Notes: generated by a model from the letters alone, not told the origin. 64,000 nt of DNA from Escherichia coli (GCF_030384885.1 NZ_CP128613.1), one strand, 5' to 3'; counted from the stretch's first letter, positions 20,631 through 57,600 are shown. Numbers and translations are program-made.

Positions 20631-21710
20631 ATGCAAACACTTGCCAATTTACTGAATACGATCCCTGCCATCGATCCTGCCGCTATGTCGCGTGCACAAC
20701 GGCATATTGACGGGTTACTCAAACCTGTTGGTAGCCTGGGAAGGCTGGAGGCGCTTGGCGTACAACTGGCGGGAATGCCGGGGTTGAATGGCATACCGCA
20801 TGTGGGCAAAAAAGCGGTACTGGTTATGTGTGCCGATCACGGCGTCTGGGAGGAAGGGGTCGCTATTTCCCCAAAAGAAGTGACAGCCATTCAGGCTGAA
20901 AATATGACCCGCGGAACAACCGGCGTGTGTGTGCTGGCAGCACAAGCGGGCGCTTACGTCCACGTAATTGATGTTGGTATTGATACTGCTGAGCCTATCC
21001 CCGGGCTTATCAACATGCGTGTCGCACGAGGTAGCGGCAATATTGCTTCAGCTCCGGCAATGAGTCGCCGTCAGGCTGAAACGTTGCTTTTGGACGTCAT
21101 ATGCTATACGCGGGAGCTGGCAAAAAACGGTGTCACGCTGTTTGGTGTAGGTGAACTGGGGATGGCAAACACGACACCGGCAGCGGCGATAGTGAGCACA
21201 ATCACTGGCCGGGATCCTGAAGAAGTGGTTGGGATTGGCGCAAACCTGCCGACAGATAAACTGGCTAATAAAATTGATGTTGTGCGACGGGCGATTACGT
21301 TGAATCAACCAAATCCGCAGGATGGCGTTGATGTCCTGGCAAAAGTGGGTGGATTTGATTTGGTCGGAATGGCTGCCGTGATGTTAGGCGCTGCGTCCTG
21401 CGGTTTACCGGTGTTGCTGGATGGATTTCTTTCTTATGCTGCCGCGCTCGCAGCCTGCCAGATGTCTCCTGCAATCAAACCGTATCTCATTCCTTCTCAC
21501 CTGTCGGCAGAAAAAGGGGCGCGTATAGCGTTGTCGCATTTGGGGCTGGAGCCTTATCTCAATATGGATATGCGTTTAGGTGAGGGAAGTGGCGCAGCTC
21601 TGGCGATGCCCATCATCGAAGCTGCCTGTGCGATATACAACAGCATGGGCGAACTTGCTGCCAGTAATATTGTTCTACCGGGGAATACGACTTCTGATTT
21701 GAACAGTTAA
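20631..21710 (+). CDS. cobT: nicotinate-nucleotide--dimethylbenzimidazole phosphoribosyltransferase
   Basis: 359 aa ORF, operon context cobUST. Confidence 0.95.
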
Positions 21711-22762: not shown

Positions 22763-22838
22763 TGGCTCCTCTGACTGGACTCGAACCAGTGACATACGGA
22801 TTAACAGTCCGCCGTTCTACCGACTGAACTACAGAGGA
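22763..22838 (-). tRNA. asnV: tRNA-Asn(GUU)
   Basis: 76-nt reverse complement of canonical tRNA-Asn sequence ending CCA. Confidence 0.97.
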
Positions 22839-25171: not shown

Positions 25172-25247
25172 TGGCTCCTCTGACTGGACTCGAACCAGTG
25201 ACATACGGATTAACAGTCCGCCGTTCTACCGACTGAACTACAGAGGA
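25172..25247 (-). tRNA. asnU: tRNA-Asn(GUU)
   Basis: 76-nt exact tRNA-Asn copy. Confidence 0.97.
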
Positions 25248-26995: not shown

Positions 26996-27071
26996 TCCTC
27001 TGTAGTTCAGTCGGTAGAACGGCGGACTGTTAATCCGTATGTCACTGGTTCGAGTCCAGTCAGAGGAGCCA
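26996..27071 (+). tRNA. asnW: tRNA-Asn(GUU)
   Basis: 76-nt exact tRNA-Asn copy, plus strand. Confidence 0.97.
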
Positions 27072-50126: not shown

Positions 50127-50684
50127 TTAATTTTTGTTATTCACTGTTTTCTTTTTGTCCTTCAAGTAATAAGTTTTCATGAAAGTTAAACGATCACCAT
50201 TAAACATATAGTCTGGATTAATAAAATAATAGTTCTGTATCATGGTCTCAGCAATAAATTTCTTGTCAGCAAGTTCTTTCATCCCTTTGAAATATGTCGT
50301 TCTTGATATTTTTACAATCTCTTGATCAACAATATCGAATGACATTAATATCGTATCTGTATCTTTATTGTCTCTAATAGCAAGATACAGTATCTTAAAT
50401 ACTTTCTTACCTGATGAGGATAAACCCTCAATAGCTGATACGCCATCCACATAAAGCTTCACGAACTGTGTCTTGTCTACTTCCATTGACTGAAAGAAAC
50501 CACCATGCCCAACCTGTTCTCCTGTATTTTCATTTACTACGGCTAAGCGGTCTTTTCCTGTTGTGATACGTCTGATACCTGTTTTTGTATGTATATTTGT
50601 ATCATTAAGGAATGGGTTTTTTACATGGCGAGGTAGACCTCTTCTTGATTTCTTTACTTCCGTTTGTATCTTATTTTCTATCAT
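50127..50684 (-). CDS. hypothetical protein (possible DNA-binding / replication-initiator-like)
   Basis: 185 aa ORF with strong RBS aaaggag; adjacent to AT-rich repeat-containing region. Confidence 0.55.
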   Translation of the reverse strand: MIENKIQTEVKKSRRGLPRHVKNPFLNDTNIHTKTGIRRITTGKDRLAVVNENTGEQVGHGGFFQSMEVDKTQFVKLYVDGVSAIEGLSSSGKKVFKILYLAIRDNKDTDTILMSFDIVDQEIVKISRTTYFKGMKELADKKFIAETMIQNYYFINPDYMFNGDRLTFMKTYYLKDKKKTVNNKN

Positions 50685-51095
50685 GGTACTTACTCCTTTA
50701 TTTTTTTAGTTATACATTTAAGTAAATACTATATTTTGCGTGCAAGTCAATACTTAAAGTTTATATTTTTTAAAATAACTAACACTTGATGTTTTTACGT
50801 ATAAAACTTGTAGTGCTACAGAATATATACAAATAACACTTTATTATTTTTATTTGAGAATAGTTATCAACTTAAGTACCGGGATTCGGGACTTTAACTC
50901 CCGAGAGTGCGTACTTTGTTTTAAGCTATAGCTGGCTTGAGAGCAGTTTTCTTCTTCATTATTCAAATAGCGAAGCTTTGGATGACATTTTAAAGAATAT
51001 AATATTGGAAATAGTTCTTCTTTTTAGTTGATTGGTGCCTTATCAAAATGGCACCAGTGGTGTTATCTGTGTTATTTTTCCTACTATGTTATTAC

Positions 51096-51145
51096 AGCGA
51101 AGTGATTGTTGTATACAATCACGAACCGCTGCTACTATCGGGACT
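51096..51145. repeat. dyad-symmetric repeat copy A (GTGATTGT-n5-ACAATCAC followed by GAAnnGCTGCTA)
   Basis: Seen directly; shares about 40 nt with copy B. Confidence 0.8.
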
Positions 51146-51232
51146 GCTTGATTAATTTTACTTTAACTTTATATGCGTCTACGACGCGATCTTTTTTGGA
51201 TAAATCCAATATTAACAGGGGCAAGCCCTGTT

Positions 51233-51280
51233 CAGCAGAGTGATTGTTCGCAACAATCACGAAGTGCTGCTATCAAGGAT
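51233..51280. repeat. dyad-symmetric repeat copy B (GTGATTGTT-CGC-AACAATCAC followed by GAAGTGCTGCTA)
   Basis: Seen directly; perfect 9-bp inverted arms. Confidence 0.8.
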
Positions 51281-51602
51281 ATAGTTTTCCTATACGTTTA
51301 AGAGCAAATGCTATATGTCTAAAGGGAAAAACTATGTTTAAACATAGGATCTAAATTCAGCATCATGAGGAAAAGAGATCAAACAATGATCGAGTACTTT
51401 TCTTTTTATTTAAAAAACAGGAGATGAATAAAATAAAAATATCAGCGTCAGGGCGTAGCCGTGCGTAAGCACAGAGATAAAGATCTTTTCAATAAGAAGT
51501 TTAATAATCAGTAGTGAAATCATAAATAAAATAAAAATATATTTGATTTTTACGCCTGCGATAGAGTATTAAACAGTAATAAAATAATAAAAGGAAAATA
51601 TA

Positions 51603-53432: not shown

Positions 53433-53640
53433 ATGTTATCTGGTTAATAATTTTCTTATGTAATATTATCTATGCCATCTGGCTATGTTTTCAATTGTTT
53501 TAGTTCTCGACAACTGTTTTTATATCCAGTATGATTTTACTCGTATCCGGCAGAATATTTTTAGATGCTGTTTCATGAACTCCGGTTGAAAGGTTTATTC
53601 TCTACTTTTGGGAATAATAGTTAAAATGGAGATAAGTGTA

Positions 53641-55077
53641 ATGACGTTTAGTAATGAAATTGAAGTTTTCATAAAAGATTTTGTTAAAGATCTTGAAAAT
53701 GATTGTGCTGCTATTTTTTCTGGCGCAGGAATGTCTAAAAGTCAAGGTTATGTTGATTGGAAAGAATTACTTAGCGATATAGCAGAAGAACTTAGTTTAG
53801 ACATTAATAAAGAAGACGATCTAATATCGCTTGCTCAATTTCATGTTAATGAAAAGAAAGGGGCTACAAAACTCACAAGGAAGATAATCGAAGAGTTTTC
53901 TGAGCAAGCCGAGCCATCAGAGGTTCATAATATAATTGCTCGTTTACCGATTAAGACATTTTGGACAACAAACTATGACACTTTAATTGAAGATAGTCTG
54001 CGGAAAGTTTACAAAATTGCAGATGTAAAAAGAAACATAGATGATTTAAATACAACACGACCTAAGCGAGACGCGATAGTATATAAAATGCATGGTGATA
54101 TTTCGTCCCCATCCAAGGCTATTTTATATAAAGAGCAGTATGAAAAATACTACAGAACACACGCTTCATTTATCACCGCACTTAGCGGAGATTTAATATC
54201 AAAAACCTTTCTATTCATAGGGTTTAGTTTTACCGACCCAAATCTGGATTACATTTTGAGTCGTTTGTATACTCATTCTGGGGACAAGAGGACACACTAT
54301 TGCTTTATGAAGAATGAGGCTAATAATTCCCTAGATGATGAAGAAACAGTAAATTATAAGATCAGAAAACAAAAACTGCGAATCGATGATCTCAAGAGAT
54401 TTGGTATACAAGTATTATTAATAGATGAATATTCTGACATCCCTAAAATTCTAGCTAAGATAGAGCAATCATTTAAAAAGAAAACGATATTTATTTCTGG
54501 TAGTGCAGAAAAATATGGGGATCTTGAAAGACCTAAAGCATTAGATTTTATTCACACATTAGCATATGAGATTATAAAGAATAATTATAGGATAGTGAAT
54601 GGATTTGGATGGGGCGTCGGAAGTTCTGTGATAAATGGTGCGTTGGATGCAATTTATAGTAGGCCAGATAAATTATCAGAAGAACAGCTCATTGTTAGAC
54701 CATTTCCACAAACTGTCAGTAAGGGGAAAGATATTCAAGAACTTTGGGAGGAGTATAGACAGAGAATGATTCCTCTTGGTGGTATTGCATTGTTTATTTT
54801 TGGAAATAAACAAGAGGAAAATAATGATATAGTTAATGCTAGGGGAGTATTTAGAGAGTTTGAGATTGCTGTTCAACATGGCCTTGTACCAATTCCTTTA
54901 CCCAATACCGGGTATATGTCTAAATATATATTTGAACAAATATCACAAGATCCTAAGAAATATTATGGAAGTAATGAATGGATATATAATGATTTGTCTG
55001 AGCTTACTGAAAAAGATTTTTCGGTAAAAAAAACAATAGAAGTTGTAATAAAAATCATAAACAAACTGAATAAATAA
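53641..55077 (+). CDS. thsA: Thoeris ThsA-like protein (N-terminal SIR2 NADase, C-terminal SLOG domain)
   Basis: ORF 53608..55077; SIR2 motifs FSGAGMS, TTNYD, HGD; C-terminal Rossmann-like FISGSAEKYG... SLOG region; length matches ThsA. Confidence 0.85.
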   Translation: MTFSNEIEVFIKDFVKDLENDCAAIFSGAGMSKSQGYVDWKELLSDIAEELSLDINKEDDLISLAQFHVNEKKGATKLTRKIIEEFSEQAEPSEVHNIIARLPIKTFWTTNYDTLIEDSLRKVYKIADVKRNIDDLNTTRPKRDAIVYKMHGDISSPSKAILYKEQYEKYYRTHASFITALSGDLISKTFLFIGFSFTDPNLDYILSRLYTHSGDKRTHYCFMKNEANNSLDDEETVNYKIRKQKLRIDDLKRFGIQVLLIDEYSDIPKILAKIEQSFKKKTIFISGSAEKYGDLERPKALDFIHTLAYEIIKNNYRIVNGFGWGVGSSVINGALDAIYSRPDKLSEEQLIVRPFPQTVSKGKDIQELWEEYRQRMIPLGGIALFIFGNKQEENNDIVNARGVFREFEIAVQHGLVPIPLPNTGYMSKYIFEQISQDPKKYYGSNEWIYNDLSELTEKDFSVKKTIEVVIKIINKLNK

Positions 55078-55093
55078 TATATTAGGTGAAGTT

Positions 55094-55705
55094 ATGGCTC
55101 ATGAAACATTCATATCATATAAATATAGTGAAGCACAGGATTTAAGAGACAAAATTGTCAAGGCATTAGGAGATGACGCTGTTTACTATAAAGGGGAGAC
55201 ATCGGAGTCTCCTGATATAAGTAATACAACAGTAGATAATATAAAGAACAATCTTAAAAATATGATTTTCGGGACATCTGTTTTAATTGTTATTATTTCC
55301 CCGAATATGATTAAAAGTAAATGGATTGACTGGGAAATTGAATATGCATTGAAAGAATACAAGAGAGGAGGAACCACTTCCCGAACTAATGGCATTGTTG
55401 GTGTGATAATGAAGGTTAATAATAGCTATGACTGGTTAGTATCTTCTTCAATCAAGCCTGATGGATGTTCATCAAGAACTATTGATACAACTAAACTATA
55501 TGACATTATTAATAATAATAGGTTTAATTTAACTTCAGAAGATAAATATTGTTGCCCTGAGTGCAAATCATATGATCAATTGACTGGTTCTTATATTTCA
55601 TTGATAGAAGAAGACCGATTTTTAGCAGATGTATCTTCATACATTGAAAATGCCTATGAGAAATCTAAAAAATTAAGTTCCTACGATTTATATAAACAAA
55701 AATAG
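55094..55705 (+). CDS. thsB: Thoeris ThsB-like TIR-domain protein
   Basis: 203 aa, N-terminal FISYKYSEAQ and SKWIDWEIEYAL typical of bacterial TIR domains; 16 bp downstream of thsA. Confidence 0.8.
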   Translation: MAHETFISYKYSEAQDLRDKIVKALGDDAVYYKGETSESPDISNTTVDNIKNNLKNMIFGTSVLIVIISPNMIKSKWIDWEIEYALKEYKRGGTTSRTNGIVGVIMKVNNSYDWLVSSSIKPDGCSSRTIDTTKLYDIINNNRFNLTSEDKYCCPECKSYDQLTGSYISLIEEDRFLADVSSYIENAYEKSKKLSSYDLYKQK

Positions 55706-56163: not shown

Positions 56164-56652
56164 TTAGAAAACATACTTTTTAAATACCAGCATCCATCGC
56201 TCACAAAGTTCGTGATTTGAAGTGCTTTTATTTTTCAAGGGAACATTAACTTTCCACATGGGATTTTTAATATCATCGGTTAAAATATTTAGACCAGACC
56301 GTTTGTTTGCTGAAAGTTGTTCTCTCCAGTTAGCAATGGCCGCATTATTCATACCTCGTAATGTTCCATTGCCGTAAAACTTACCACCTTCTGAAAGCGT
56401 ATAATTTATTTCTCGAATTTGATCAAAAGTATATGTGCTATCTTTATCTTTATTGAAAATACGGACAGTATGTTTTTGAGTATCAATGACAATACCTGTC
56501 TGTTGGCATTGATACGAAAGAATGTCGCCGTCCAGAACTTCCGTGAAGCTGTTGTAGTGCTTTTTCTTCTGTATATCTGCTGCGGTCATGATAATGACGA
56601 AGAGCACCACTAAAAATACGATACCTGTTGCTTCCACTTTTACTTCCTCCAT
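56164..56652 (-). CDS. hypothetical membrane-anchored protein
   Basis: 162 aa ORF with one N-terminal TM helix; weak RBS. Confidence 0.45.
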   Translation of the reverse strand: MEEVKVEATGIVFLVVLFVIIMTAADIQKKKHYNSFTEVLDGDILSYQCQQTGIVIDTQKHTVRIFNKDKDSTYTFDQIREINYTLSEGGKFYGNGTLRGMNNAAIANWREQLSANKRSGLNILTDDIKNPMWKVNVPLKNKSTSNHELCERWMLVFKKYVF

Positions 56653-56769
56653 GTAAATGAGTTAAAGAGACTGAACCCGCTCACAGAGCTTTGCTTCGTT
56701 TTATACGTCCTACAGCACCAAACTCATGGCGTCGGTCTCGGCGTTGCAAGGCTATCAGAACTTGAAATC

Positions 56770-56912
56770 ATGATCGATATAAAAGATCGATAATTGCTTA
56801 TTGATAGATTCTAACGATTAAACAGATGATATCGATCGGCAATTAATTGTTATTATCGATCGAATATCAACTTATGATAGCTGCAAGCTATCATGTGGTC
56901 GTTTTTGATCGT
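56770..56912. promoter_or_regulatory. GATC-dense divergent intergenic region with repeated ATCGATCG motifs and a 21-bp near-palindrome
   Basis: Five GATC sites in about 140 bp; atgatagctgcaagctatcat near-palindrome at 56874..56894. Confidence 0.4.
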
Positions 56913-57069
56913 TTTAAACGATATGACGAGACGCTAAAAGAATTGAATCCTATCAATTGGTTAAGCGGTGGTTTTGCCATGTGATATCAGCCGGATCCCG
57001 CAACAACTCAAGCCCTGACCGGATTAGGTCAAAAATTTAGGCACTTTGATTATCAGGATGGACAAGCAG

Positions 57070-57600
57070 ATGAAGAAGATTTTACTCGTTGTAGGCGCAA
57101 CTCTGGCACTGGCGGGATGTGGTGAGAAAGGTGATTTTGAGAAGGCGATCAATGCCAAGATAGGGCAGGACAAATATTGCTTCTCGCTGGATAACAATAA
57201 CACCAGCTTCCCCATCCGTCTTGCCAAGCCACGACTTGATTCGACTGGCACAGGGACGAATTCAGTGATCCTCGACGGTTTTATTGAGCAGGGCCTGATG
57301 GTTTTTGAACAGGGCTATGATTCGAACGTATTAGGGATAACAGAGGAAGGCAAAAAAGCCAAAGTCTGGAGCACAAGAGACGGTGCTTGTGTAGGTCGTC
57401 GTGCTGTTGATGAGATTAAGGAATGGACGGAGCCGGGAAACGGTAATCAGAAAGTAGTTCGCGTGACTTATACGTGGAAGTTGGTTGACGTTCCGGGCTG
57501 GATTGACAAAAAAGCCTTCGCCAGCGTTAAAGGAATGAATGAACCTGCTGATGGTGCAATGAATCTTGTTAAAACAAGTAATGGCTGGAAAGCTAACTAA
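57070..57600 (+). CDS. hypothetical lipoprotein
   Basis: ORF 57046..57600, start MKKILLVVGATLALAGC (lipobox). Confidence 0.6.
   Translation: MKKILLVVGATLALAGCGEKGDFEKAINAKIGQDKYCFSLDNNNTSFPIRLAKPRLDSTGTGTNSVILDGFIEQGLMVFEQGYDSNVLGITEEGKKAKVWSTRDGACVGRRAVDEIKEWTEPGNGNQKVVRVTYTWKLVDVPGWIDKKAFASVKGMNEPADGAMNLVKTSNGWKAN

What the first reader, a model, noticed from the sequence alone, without database searches (positions are those of the whole stretch)
56770..56912. GATC-dense divergent promoter region with repeated ATCGATCG motifs and a near-palindrome
Five Dam sites (GATC) occur within about 140 bp, against roughly 0.5 expected by chance. They are embedded in repeated (G)ATCGATCG(R) motifs, next to a 21-bp near-palindrome (atgatagctgcaagctatcat), between divergently transcribed genes. 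Clustered GATC sites overlapping regulator sites are the basis of Dam-dependent epigenetic switches such as pap and agn43, and can also mark origin-like DNA.
Basis: seen in the sequence. Interest (0 to 1): 0.45.

Follow-up and report, generated by a model that had tools for sequence, protein, structure and literature searches.

The report
Dam/OxyR-type epigenetic switch upstream of lipoprotein
The GATC-rich stretch is a conserved, non-coding control cassette built like the known Dam-methylation/OxyR on-off switches of gtr, opvAB and agn43. It sits in front of a lipoprotein gene on a mobile pathogenicity island of E. coli, so that gene is probably switched on and off heritably in subpopulations.

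Summary
There are five GATC sites in 143 bp, the densest such stretch in the window, with repeated ATCGATCG/GATCGATA motifs and a palindrome, between divergent genes.

The stretch is a roughly 200-bp non-coding module (56770-56973). It is conserved in 29 loci from many Enterobacterales genera and occurs in about 12% of complete E. coli genomes, always 70-110 bp upstream of a lipoprotein gene on ROD21/serU-type mobilizable islands.

Its conserved blocks are an array of OxyR-type half-sites (ATAGnTnnnAnCTAT) spaced 31, 42, 31 and 31 bp apart. The palindrome is the only 10/10 consensus match in the 64 kb. Four of the five GATCs lie inside flanking half-sites.

A profile built only from 43 unrelated "core" loci hits the module twice, showing two tandem units. 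In phage P22 it hits only the experimentally proven gtr Dam/OxyR phase-variation region. A conserved weak promoter follows the last half-site.

There are no DnaA boxes, iterons or conserved pap-type features.

Best reading: a new member or variant of the Dam/OxyR phase-variation switch family. No description of it was found in the searchable literature. Methylation states, OxyR binding and bistability remain untested.

The parts
56770..56973 (+). Conserved non-coding module (the whole switch cassette plus promoter)
   Evidence: nhmmer with the window sequence finds 29 loci covering query positions 10-14 to 205-214. BLAST homology in many E. coli genomes begins exactly at 56770. Alignments contain indels, so the stretch is not coding.
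56767..56841 (+). Unit L: distal switch unit, with a GATC pair in HS1, a GATC-free centre HS2, and GATC3 in a degenerate third half-site
   Evidence: A profile built from 43 class B cores, which excluded the window, hits this stretch at E 4e-9. The alignment places GATC1 and GATC2 on the pair flank, HS2 on the central site and GATC3 on the inner GATC of the other flank.
56842..56926 (+). Unit R: promoter-proximal switch unit (HS4, HS5, HS6)
   Evidence: The same profile hits this stretch at E 9e-14. This hit is partly by construction, because the collecting pattern came from this unit. It is one of only two triads of half-sites scoring >=7/10 at 30-33-bp steps in the 64 kb; Markov shuffles give a mean of 0.05.
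56772..56775 (.). GATC1 (in HS1)
   Evidence: kept in 25/29 loci
56785..56788 (.). GATC2 (in HS1, 13 bp from GATC1 as in the gtr and agn43 pairs)
   Evidence: kept in 28/29 loci; pair spacing of 13 bp in gtr
56834..56837 (.). GATC3 (in an ATCG quarter-site; the full half-site HS3 is weak)
   Evidence: kept in 29/29 loci; the best overlapping 15-mer scores only 5-6/10 in most relatives
56858..56861 (.). GATC4 (in HS4)
   Evidence: kept in 29/29 loci
56907..56910 (.). GATC5 (in HS6)
   Evidence: kept in 28/29 loci
56773..56787 (.). HS1, ATCGatataaaAGAT: OxyR-like half-site, 7/10
   Evidence: mean score 6.9 in 29 loci
56804..56818 (.). HS2, ATAGattctaaCGAT: OxyR-like half-site, 9/10, no GATC
   Evidence: mean score 8.8; arms conserved and spacer free
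56835..56849 (.). HS3, ATCGgcaattaATTG: degenerate half-site (4-5/10) that shares the ATTG quarter with HS4
56846..56860 (.). HS4, ATTGttattatCGAT: OxyR-like half-site, 8/10
   Evidence: mean score 7.8
56877..56891 (.).
   Evidence: It is the only 10/10 match in the 64 kb. Mean score is 9.8 in 29 loci. The spacer shows no hairpin covariation.
56908..56922 (.). HS6, ATCGttttaaaCGAT: OxyR-like half-site, 8/10, promoter-proximal
   Evidence: scores 8/10 in 28/29 loci
56923..56951 (+). Predicted promoter P_R: -35 ATGACG (56923-28), 17-bp spacer, -10 AATCCT (56946-51), start of transcription near 56958 (inferred)
   Evidence: RTGACK is kept in 28/29 loci, the spacer is 17 bp in 29/29, and AATnCT/AATnAT is kept in 28/29. 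The position relative to the central site is the same as the modal promoter of class B cores, where the -10 starts +61 to +64 in 27/42 loci.
56850..56878 (+). Possible second promoter P_L, downstream of unit L and inside unit R: weak -35 at 56850-55, -10 TATGAT at 56873-78 (speculative)
   Evidence: TATGAT is kept in 20/29 loci and the spacer is 17 bp in 28/29. It is a frequent top candidate in the promoter scan. However, it overlaps the conserved palindrome arm, so the match may be incidental.
56951..56963 (+). TATCAATTGGTTA: perfect IHF consensus (WATCAANNNNTTR) at the predicted transcription start; role unknown
   Evidence: There are 9 such matches in the whole window on both strands. TATCAATTG(G/A)TTA is kept in 23/29 loci.
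57070..57600 (+). Regulated gene: 176-aa lipoprotein with a lipobox (LAGC), function unknown; SEN1982 counterpart by synteny
   Evidence: A lipoprotein gene follows the module in every class A locus examined. ROD21 gene order is given. The predicted structure has no informative fold match.
56164..56652 (-). Divergent neighbour: DUF4755 membrane protein; probably not controlled by the module
   Evidence: Pfam DUF4755 at E 7.6e-14. The left flank is not conserved beyond 56770. DUF4755-like genes are nevertheless driven by single-unit cores in 14 other loci.

Best explanation
The region is a transcriptional phase-variation switch of the Dam/OxyR type.

Proposed mechanism. It is an array of binding half-sites for the host LysR-type regulator OxyR, laid out three helical turns apart. 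An OxyR tetramer can therefore occupy alternative neighbouring pairs of half-sites. The flanking half-sites carry GATC, and the central, consensus-perfect ones (HS2, HS5) do not. Dam methylation of a GATC-bearing half-site is expected to block OxyR there. Bound OxyR is expected to block Dam. Each occupancy pattern would then copy itself to daughter cells as a methylation pattern.

Layout. The promoter-proximal unit (HS4-HS5-HS6, with GATC4 and GATC5) abuts a conserved weak promoter: -35 at 56923-28 and -10 at 56946-51. That promoter drives the island's 176-aa lipoprotein gene. A second, co-oriented unit (HS1-HS2-GATC3) lies directly upstream. It gives opvAB-like spacing and possibly extra states.

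Shown here: the sequence architecture, its conservation, its profile-level similarity to the proven P22 gtr switch, its polarity and the conserved promoter geometry.

Inferred: that OxyR is the protein, that methylation is differential, that expression is bistable, and which occupancy means ON.
For: 1. Half-site matches. Scanning with ATAGnTnnnAnCTAT, the only 10/10 match in the 64 kb is the palindrome. Two of the five matches scoring >=9/10, and five of the 41 scoring >=8/10, lie within 160 bp here, against 0.10 expected.

2. Spacing. Half-site centres are 56780, 56811, 56853, 56884 and 56915, giving steps of 31, 42, 31 and 31 bp. In gtr the A, B and C sites are about 32 bp apart, with GATC at -110/-97 and -46/-33. 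In opvAB the steps are 32, 41 and 32, with half-site scores of 10, 8, 10 and 7.

3. Conservation pattern. In 29 loci from different genera the ten consensus positions hold 1.7-2.0 bits, while the free positions hold 0.4-0.9 bits in HS1, HS2, HS4 and HS5. Position 6 is T and position 10 is A, as in the OxyR consensus. The five GATCs are kept in 25-29 of 29 loci.

4. Profile test. A profile built from 43 other cores, without the window, class A loci or P22, hits the window twice (E 9e-14 and 4e-9). In the 41.7-kb P22 genome its only significant hit is 21055-21144 (E 3e-8), which is the experimentally defined gtr Dam/OxyR region. It also hits the agn43 GATC-II/III pair of K-12 (E 9e-4).

5. Polarity and promoter. 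In cores with one GATC pair and one single GATC, the gene lies on the single side in 30 cases against 3. The modal -10 lies +61 to +64 from the central site. The window has a conserved -35, 17-bp spacer and -10 at that position.

6. Host. The window is E. coli chromosome, 100% identical to other E. coli next to mtfA. E. coli has Dam, OxyR and SeqA; this is established knowledge and was not tested in the window.

7. Distribution. True cores occur almost only in Enterobacterales, plus Gilliamella. No regulator gene is consistently adjacent, which favours a host-encoded factor.
Against: There are no experimental data on methylation, OxyR binding or expression for this locus, and I found none in the literature.

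The collecting pattern was derived from unit R, so the unit R profile hit is partly circular. The unit L and P22 hits are not.

In unit R each flanking half-site has one GATC, not a pair as in gtr. GATC3 lies in a poor half-site (4-6/10).

G-ATCG resembles the extended OxyR consensus G-ATAG. GATC conservation could therefore reflect binding-site conservation alone.

The predicted -10 is weak (AATCCT), and promoter scans in this AT-rich DNA are noisy.

Another LysR-type protein with a similar half-site cannot be excluded.
Confidence: 0.68

Rival explanations
1. It is an ordinary, non-heritable operator array. OxyR or a similar regulator binds the half-sites and tunes the lipoprotein promoter, for example in response to oxidative stress. 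The GATCs are only part of the binding-site sequence, there are no alternative methylation patterns, and expression is not bistable.
For: The half-site array is well supported. G-ATCG is one base away from the extended consensus G-ATAG, so GATC conservation does not by itself prove selection for Dam targets. Unit R has only single GATCs per flanking half-site.
Against: The layout of three or more half-sites at 31-bp steps offers mutually exclusive tetramer positions. GATCs occur only in the alternating outer sites and never in the central consensus sites. This is the specific design of gtr and opvAB. A simple operator needs only one tetramer site. The profile-level match to the proven gtr switch also argues against it.
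Confidence: 0.17
2. It is a Dam-sensitive switch read by a different protein. Candidates are another host LysR-type regulator (HdfR-like, as in the std operon) or an island-encoded factor, rather than OxyR.
For: T-N11-A palindromes are common to LysR-type regulators. HdfR/Dam control of std is a precedent (listed). The islands carry small HTH and H-NS-like proteins.
Against: The match is to the OxyR-specific consensus, including T6 and A10. The closest profile hits are the OxyR-bound regions of gtr and agn43. No regulator gene travels with the module across islands and genera.
Confidence: 0.1
3. It is origin-like DNA: a replication origin (oriV) or transfer origin (oriT) of the island whose GATC cluster serves SeqA sequestration or timing.
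For: GATC clusters mark oriC and some plasmid origins. The island encodes RepL and a MobQ relaxase. A perfect IHF consensus lies at 56951.
Against: There is no DnaA box even with one mismatch and there are no iterons. The module always lies 70-110 bp upstream of a gene start in one orientation, including in islands without repL nearby. The likelier RepL-associated repeat region is at 51095-51272, next to repL. The relaxase's own upstream region is 3.5 kb away.
Confidence: 0.03
4. It is a pap-type switch, with Lrp plus a PapI-like co-regulator binding GATC boxes.
For: GATC2 sits in CGATCTTTT (minus strand), which I recall from the literature to be the pap GATC-box sequence. There are 3 such matches in the window.
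Against: That flank is not conserved in relatives. There is no second box at the pap spacing and no papI/papB homologue nearby. The conserved blocks fit OxyR half-sites instead.
Confidence: 0.02

Closest known systems
gtr (O-antigen glucosyltransferase) phase-variation switch of phage P22 and Salmonella (Broadbent et al. 2010, PMC2909390)
   Same: Both have three OxyR half-sites about three helical turns apart. The central site is GATC-free and matches the consensus. The outer sites are ATCG-N7-CGAT and carry GATC, with 13 bp between paired GATCs. The promoter lies directly downstream. A profile built from relatives of this module hits the P22 gtr region as its only significant hit in that phage genome.
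   Different: Linkers are 31 bp, not 32. Unit R has one GATC per outer half-site instead of two. A second unit is fused upstream, giving five GATCs and five or six half-sites. The proximal half-site centre is predicted near -43 rather than -38. The controlled gene is a lipoprotein on a mobilizable island, not a gtr operon on a prophage. BLAST finds no similarity to any phage record.
opvAB switch of Salmonella enterica (Cota et al. 2016, PMC4856963)
   Same: opvAB has four OxyR half-sites at steps of 32, 41 and 32 bp scoring 10, 8, 10 and 7. Here HS1, HS2, HS4 and HS5 lie at steps of 31, 42 and 31 bp scoring 7, 9, 8 and 10. In both, some GATCs lie outside good half-sites, and the proximal site lies just upstream of the -35.
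   Different: The order of strong and weak sites differs, and GATC positions differ. There are two further sites (HS6 and perhaps HS7) and five GATCs rather than four. Sequence homology was not tested, because no Salmonella sequence was available to me.
agn43 (flu) switch of E. coli K-12
   Same: Dam and OxyR are the players. The GATC-II/III pair, GATCGTTTATATCGATC, is the same pair half-site as in this family (profile hit E 9e-4). K-12 carries agn43 on the CP4-44 element; that this element sits at the same serU site is my recollection and was not tested here.
   Different: By established knowledge, agn43 has a single OxyR site with three GATCs that acts only as a repressor site at or after the transcription start. 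Here there are several alternative sites upstream of the promoter.
ROD21 of Salmonella Enteritidis, the EARL island family, and the serU (tcpC) island of E. coli CFT073
   Same: The host element is of this kind. It has a tRNA-linked integrase, a MobQ relaxase, RepL, H-NS paralogues, pilV/pilS, TIR-domain genes, and SEN1984-like and SEN1982-like lipoproteins in the same order.
   Different: These papers describe excision, transfer and virulence effects of the islands. I found no description of this regulatory module or of phase variation of the lipoprotein genes.

Membership tests
Dam/OxyR phase-variation switch, gtr architecture | Three OxyR half-sites (>=7-8/10 to ATAGnTnnnAnCTAT) about 32 bp apart, giving two overlapping tetramer sites | tested here: met
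   HS4, HS5 and HS6 score 8, 10 and 8 at steps of 31 and 31 bp. Such triads occur nowhere else in the 64 kb; shuffles give a mean of 0.05.
Dam/OxyR phase-variation switch, gtr architecture | GATC inside the two outer half-sites and none in the central one | tested here: met
   GATC4 lies in HS4, GATC5 in HS6, and HS5 has none. These are single GATCs rather than pairs. The GATC1/2 pair in HS1 shows the 13-bp spacing.
Dam/OxyR phase-variation switch, gtr architecture | Sequence-profile similarity to an experimentally proven member | tested here: met
   A profile built from 43 independent cores hits P22 21055-21144 at E 3e-8, its only significant hit in that genome.
Dam/OxyR phase-variation switch, gtr architecture | Promoter adjacent to or overlapped by the proximal half-site | tested here: inconclusive
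   A conserved RTGACK-N17-AATnCT follows directly after HS6, at the modal position of related cores. However, the -10 is weak and no transcription start has been mapped.
Dam/OxyR phase-variation switch, gtr architecture | Host encodes Dam and OxyR | not tested
   dam and oxyR are not in the window. The window is E. coli chromosome, and E. coli has both by established knowledge.
Dam/OxyR phase-variation switch, gtr architecture | OxyR binds the unmethylated DNA, methylation abolishes binding, and bound OxyR blocks Dam | not testable with these tools
   Needs gel-shift, footprinting and in vitro methylation-protection assays.
Dam/OxyR phase-variation switch, gtr architecture | Reciprocal methylation patterns and heritable, reversible ON/OFF expression | not testable with these tools
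   Needs single-molecule methylation reads and reporter fusions.
opvAB-type architecture | Four OxyR half-sites at steps of about 32, 41 and 32 bp | tested here: met
   HS1, HS2, HS4 and HS5 lie at steps of 31, 42 and 31 bp, against -148, -116, -75 and -43 in opvAB.
agn43-type architecture | A single OxyR tetramer site holding three GATCs, at or after the transcription start, acting as a repressor only | tested here: not met
   Here there are several alternative sites upstream of the predicted promoter. Only the pair half-site is shared.
pap-type (Lrp/PapI) switch | Two sets of Lrp sites, each with a conserved GATC box, about 102 bp apart, with papI/papB-like genes | tested here: not met
   One unconserved CGATCTTTT box is present. 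No papI/papB-like ORFs are nearby.
Replication origin (oriC or plasmid oriV type) | DnaA boxes, iterons and an AT-rich unwinding element near GATC clusters | tested here: not met
   There are no DnaA boxes with 0-1 mismatch in 56700-57000. The conserved blocks are explained by half-sites and a promoter.
ROD21/EARL-type mobilizable island (context) | tRNA-adjacent integrase, MobQ relaxase, RepL, H-NS paralogues, type IV pilin genes and TIR-domain cargo, in ROD21 order | tested here: met
   The annotated E. coli homologue is. tRNA-Ser lies at 43794-43883.

The most novel reading that the evidence does not exclude
This module is one instance of a large, undescribed family of portable Dam/OxyR epigenetic switch cassettes that travel with genomic islands across Enterobacterales. 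They put small envelope proteins under heritable ON/OFF control: lipoproteins, DUF4755 and zinc-ribbon membrane proteins, and secreted proteins, plus XRE regulators in Proteus, Providencia and Morganella. In this island two cassettes are fused in tandem, each apparently with its own promoter. That could give a switch with more than two heritable states, controlling a lipoprotein whose Salmonella counterpart (SEN1982) has been linked to organ colonisation. The cassette sits next to a Thoeris anti-phage system.
Probability: 0.4. Interest if true: 0.7.

Novelty: new member of a known kind. Interest (0 to 1): 0.55.

Why it matters
Only a handful of Dam/OxyR switches are known: agn43, gtr and opvAB, plus the phage Mu mom gene, which is Dam/OxyR-controlled but not known to phase-vary. 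All of the phase-varying ones control cell-surface traits that matter for phage resistance, immune evasion and biofilms.

If this cassette works as predicted, about one in eight sequenced E. coli would carry an unrecognised phase-variable surface lipoprotein on a pathogenicity island. Carriers include CFT073 and O103/O111 strains, as well as many other Enterobacterales.

The family of related cores would enlarge the catalogue of epigenetic switches several-fold. It would also supply natural variants in number of GATCs, site strength and tandem units for studying how switching rates are set.

The prediction is directly testable with existing long-read methylation data and simple reporter fusions.

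Tried and rejected
Small RNA or riboswitch. An Rfam scan of 56300-57400 found nothing relevant.

Terminator hairpin. The scan flags the palindrome plus a weak T-run. Across 73 distinct spacers, however, the inner positions are complementary only as often as column composition predicts. It is therefore a DNA site, not an RNA stem.

Small ORF. The 45-aa ORF at 56847-56984 is broken by indels in relatives.

Class B cores as gtr operons. The downstream genes are other small envelope proteins, not gtr genes.

Bidirectional double switch. I first read unit L as driving the divergent DUF4755 gene. A TGaTAGCCT extended -10 sits at the gtr-geometry position, 56757-56749 on the minus strand. Against this, the left flank is not conserved, ten relatives have a co-directional left neighbour, and polarity in related cores puts the gene on the single-GATC side in 30 cases against 3. 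I now rate this reading as unlikely.

HS7 (56939-53, 7-8/10) as a further half-site. It coincides with the conserved -10 block, so its match may be incidental.

Function of the lipoprotein. Pfam and NCBIfam match only the signal peptide. There is no PDB sequence hit. The AlphaFold model has pLDDT 72.8 and no informative Foldseek match.

Literature. Searches on ROD21, DUF4755/SEN198x, unmethylated GATC surveys (E. coli ST131, Photorhabdus) and recent reviews found no description of this module.

Other collections. BLAST found no match in phages and only 5 matches among 72,556 plasmid records, two of them an E. coli chromosome-sized record and a 393-kb record.

Full report
**1. Observation**

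The sequence shows GATC at 56772, 56785, 56834, 56858 and 56907. That is five sites in 143 bp against a window mean of 0.525, and it is the densest such stretch in the 64 kb. All five read GATCG.

GATCGATA occurs twice on the plus strand, 13 bp apart. Its reverse complement TATCGATC occurs twice, 24 bp apart. The 21-bp near-palindrome lies at 56874-56894.

The flanking genes are divergent. A DUF4755 gene lies at 56164-56652 on the minus strand. A 176-aa lipoprotein gene runs from 57070 to 57600 on the plus strand.

Density alone is only moderately unlikely, with about 0.1 such clusters expected per window by a Poisson estimate. The case rests on what follows.

**2. Context**

The window is E. 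coli chromosome. The mtfA-serU region is 100% identical to other E. coli.

From tRNA-Ser(CGA) at 43794-43883 to about 63540 lies a roughly 20-kb mobilizable island. It encodes:
- an integrase;
- RepL;
- two H-NS paralogues;
- a Thoeris pair, ThsA (SIR2-STALD) and ThsB (TIR);
- a MobQ relaxase;
- TraD-like and type IV pilin genes.

Gene order matches ROD21 of Salmonella Enteritidis: SEN1980 MobQ, SEN1982 lipoprotein and SEN1984 BamE-like lipoprotein. It also matches the serU island of CFT073, which carries tcpC and has the same DUF4755, module and lipoprotein arrangement.

**3. The GATC region is a conserved non-coding module**

BLAST of the intergenic DNA finds it in 680 of 5,426 complete E. 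coli genomes. Many hits start exactly at 56770, with different DNA to the left.

More distant copies (72-76% identity) sit in other islands with different neighbours. One is an ICE with DotA/TraY, and another is an element with AlpA, MobC and a relaxase.

An exact-pattern scan of one genome per species returned 120 loci. nhmmer then defined two groups:
- "Class A": 29 loci, including the window, that carry the whole module at 56770-56973. They come from Pectobacterium, Dickeya, Brenneria, Yersinia, Hafnia, Enterobacter, Kluyvera, Cedecea, Erwinia and others.
- "Class B": about 68 loci that carry only a single-unit core.

In class A the gene starting 70-110 bp downstream is always a lipoprotein, from two unrelated families. 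A MobQ relaxase gene often lies about 3 kb further on. The alignment contains indels, so the module does not encode protein.

**4. Anatomy**

The conserved blocks are pairs of 4-nt arms separated by seven free positions.

| Half-site | Coordinates | Sequence | Score vs ATAGnTnnnAnCTAT |
|---|---|---|---|
| HS1 | 56773-87 | ATCGatataaaAGAT | 7/10 |
| HS2 | 56804-18 | ATAGattctaaCGAT | 9/10 |
| HS4 | 56846-60 | ATTGttattatCGAT | 8/10 |
| HS5 | 56877-91 | ATAGctgcaagCTAT | 10/10 |
| HS6 | 56908-22 | ATCGttttaaaCGAT | 8/10 |

The consensus is the OxyR half-site consensus as used in PMC2909390 and PMC4856963.

HS5 is the only perfect match in the 64 kb. Five of the window's 41 matches scoring >=8/10 lie in these 160 bp, where 0.1 is expected. 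Triads of sites scoring >=7/10 at 30-33-bp steps occur only here, while Markov shuffles give a mean of 0.05 per 64 kb.

Across the 29 loci the ten consensus positions carry 1.7-2.0 bits. The free positions carry 0.4-0.9 bits in HS1, HS2, HS4 and HS5. Position 6 is T and position 10 is A, as in the OxyR consensus.

The half-site centres are 31, 42, 31 and 31 bp apart. GATC1 and GATC2 lie in HS1, GATC4 in HS4 and GATC5 in HS6. HS2 and HS5 have none. GATC3 is kept in 29/29 loci but sits in an ATCG quarter-site whose full half-site (HS3) is weak.

The palindrome's inner spacer shows no compensatory pairing. It is therefore a protein site on DNA, not an RNA hairpin.

**5. Comparison with proven switches**

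In gtr of P22, GATC1-4 start at -110, -97, -46 and -33. They lie as pairs in OxyR half-sites A and C, with a GATC-free site B between them. OxyR at A+B gives ON and OxyR at B+C gives OFF. Methylation blocks OxyR, and OxyR blocks Dam.

The P22 sequence reads tGATCGgtaacaaCGATC-16-ATAGataaaaaCTATCA-14-GATCGcttgtatCGATC.

In opvAB, four half-sites are centred at -148, -116, -75 and -43. The steps are 32, 41 and 32 bp and the scores are 10, 8, 10 and 7.

The module combines both layouts. HS4-HS5-HS6 is gtr-like. HS1-HS2-HS4-HS5 has the opvAB steps.

I built a profile from 43 class B cores, excluding the window, class A loci and P22. Its hits were:
- window 56842-56926, E 9e-14. This is partly by construction, since the collecting pattern came from this unit.
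- window 56767-56841, E 4e-9. This is not by construction.
- P22 21055-21144, E 3e-8, its only significant hit in that genome. This is the experimentally defined gtr region.
- the GATC-II/III pair of K-12 agn43, E 9e-4.

The module is thus two tandem units of the same grammar as a proven Dam/OxyR switch.

**6. Polarity and promoter**

Among class B cores with a GATC pair on one side and a single GATC on the other, the gene that reads away lies on the single side in 30 cases and on the pair side in 3. Unit L has its pair on the left, so it points rightwards, like unit R.

In class B the best sigma-70 match has its -10 starting +61 to +64 from the central site in 27 of 42 loci. Its -35 lies directly after the proximal half-site.

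At that position the window has ATGACG (56923-28), a 17-bp spacer and AATCCT (56946-51). In class A, RTGACK is kept in 28/29 loci, the spacer is 17 bp in 29/29, and AATnCT or AATnAT is kept in 28/29. This explains two conserved blocks that the half-sites do not explain.

The transcription start would then be near 56958, with a 5' leader of about 112 nt.

The proximal half-site centre would lie near -43. That resembles OBSD of opvAB, where occupancy means ON, more than site C of gtr at -38, where occupancy means OFF. I therefore cannot deduce which state is ON.

A second promoter-like pair lies at the equivalent distance from unit L: a weak -35 at 56850-55 and TATGAT at 56873-78, kept in 20/29 loci. 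It overlaps the palindrome arm and may be incidental.

**7. Rival explanations**

- Origin-like DNA. There is no DnaA box even with one mismatch and there are no iterons. The module is always promoter-like in position and orientation. A better RepL-associated repeat region lies at 51095-51272.
- pap-type switch. One CGATCTTTT box at GATC2 is not conserved, and there is no papI/papB.
- Plain operator without epigenetic memory. This is possible, since G-ATCG is close to the extended consensus G-ATAG. However, alternating GATC-bearing and GATC-free sites that offer exclusive tetramer positions is the specific design of the proven switches.
- Another LysR-type reader. This is not excluded.

**8. 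What is regulated**

The regulated gene encodes a 176-aa lipoprotein with the lipobox LAGC. It has no family assignment beyond the signal peptide and no structural match.

By synteny it corresponds to SEN1982 of ROD21. A cited study links loss of SEN1982 to reduced spleen and liver colonisation. This equivalence is an inference, because the sequence was not compared directly.

Related single-unit cores sit in front of several kinds of gene:
- DUF4755 proteins (14 loci);
- zinc-ribbon membrane proteins (8 loci);
- SEN1984-like lipoproteins;
- a secreted 137-aa protein (6 loci);
- a 93-aa XRE regulator in Proteus, Providencia and Morganella (10 loci).

**9. Novelty and verdict**

I found no description of this module or of phase variation of these genes in the searchable library. 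A 2026 review cites only agn43 and gtr as OxyR/Dam switches, alongside the Lrp-dependent pap. The library lacks most subscription-journal papers, so prior description cannot be excluded.

I file it as a new member of the Dam/OxyR phase-variation switch family, arguably a tandem variant. Confidence is about 0.7 that it works this way. OxyR binding, differential methylation and bistability all remain untested.

Noticed in passing
window 53608-55705: A type I Thoeris anti-phage pair lies just left of the switch neighbourhood. ThsA has SIR2 plus a STALD/SLOG domain (489 aa). ThsB has a TIR domain (203 aa).
   Followed up: partly
window 51095-51134 and 51233-51272 (also GATC cluster near 51348): Upstream of the RepL gene (50127-50684, minus strand) there are two 40-nt direct repeats 138 bp apart. 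Each contains a 21-nt palindrome, GTGATTGTTGTATACAATCAC. AT-rich repeats and four GATCs lie nearby. This is a better candidate for the island's replication origin or RepL operator than the finding itself.
   Followed up: partly
window 43794-43883 to about 63540: The whole right third of the window is a ROD21/EARL-type mobilizable island inserted at tRNA-Ser(CGA) next to mtfA. It is only about 95% identical to the versions in other complete E. coli genomes, and no near-identical copy was found.
   Followed up: partly
window 22763-22838, 25172-25247, 26996-27071, 42727-42802: Four tRNA-Asn(GTT) genes are spread over 20 kb. This is the asn tRNA region, a known island integration hotspot. An Arm-domain integrase fragment is annotated near 42.7 kb in identical E. 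coli.
   Followed up: no
L066, L071, L072, L076, L078, L085, L086, L095, L096, L005: In Proteus, Providencia and Morganella, single-unit cores of the same switch grammar sit about 170 bp upstream of a 93-aa XRE-type helix-turn-helix gene. This suggests phase-variable regulators in those genera.
   Followed up: no
window 56951-56963: A perfect IHF consensus, TATCAATTGGTTA, lies at the predicted transcription start. It is kept in most class A loci, and its role is unexplained.
   Followed up: partly
L016, L099, L100, L102: Short contigs binned as Erysipelotrichia, Flavobacterium psychrophilum or Bacteroidales MAGs carry typical Enterobacterales copies of the module. They are probably mis-binned contigs.
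   Followed up: no
L127 (E. coli CFT073 2212911-2221327): In CFT073 the same module precedes a lipoprotein gene on the serU island. That island carries the TIR-domain virulence gene tcpC, a second TIR gene and a macro-domain gene.
   Followed up: partly
window 56757-56749 (minus strand): A TGaTAGCCT extended -10-like motif lies at the gtr-geometry distance from GATC1, facing the DUF4755 gene. It lies outside the conserved module and may be that gene's own promoter or a chance match.
   Followed up: partly
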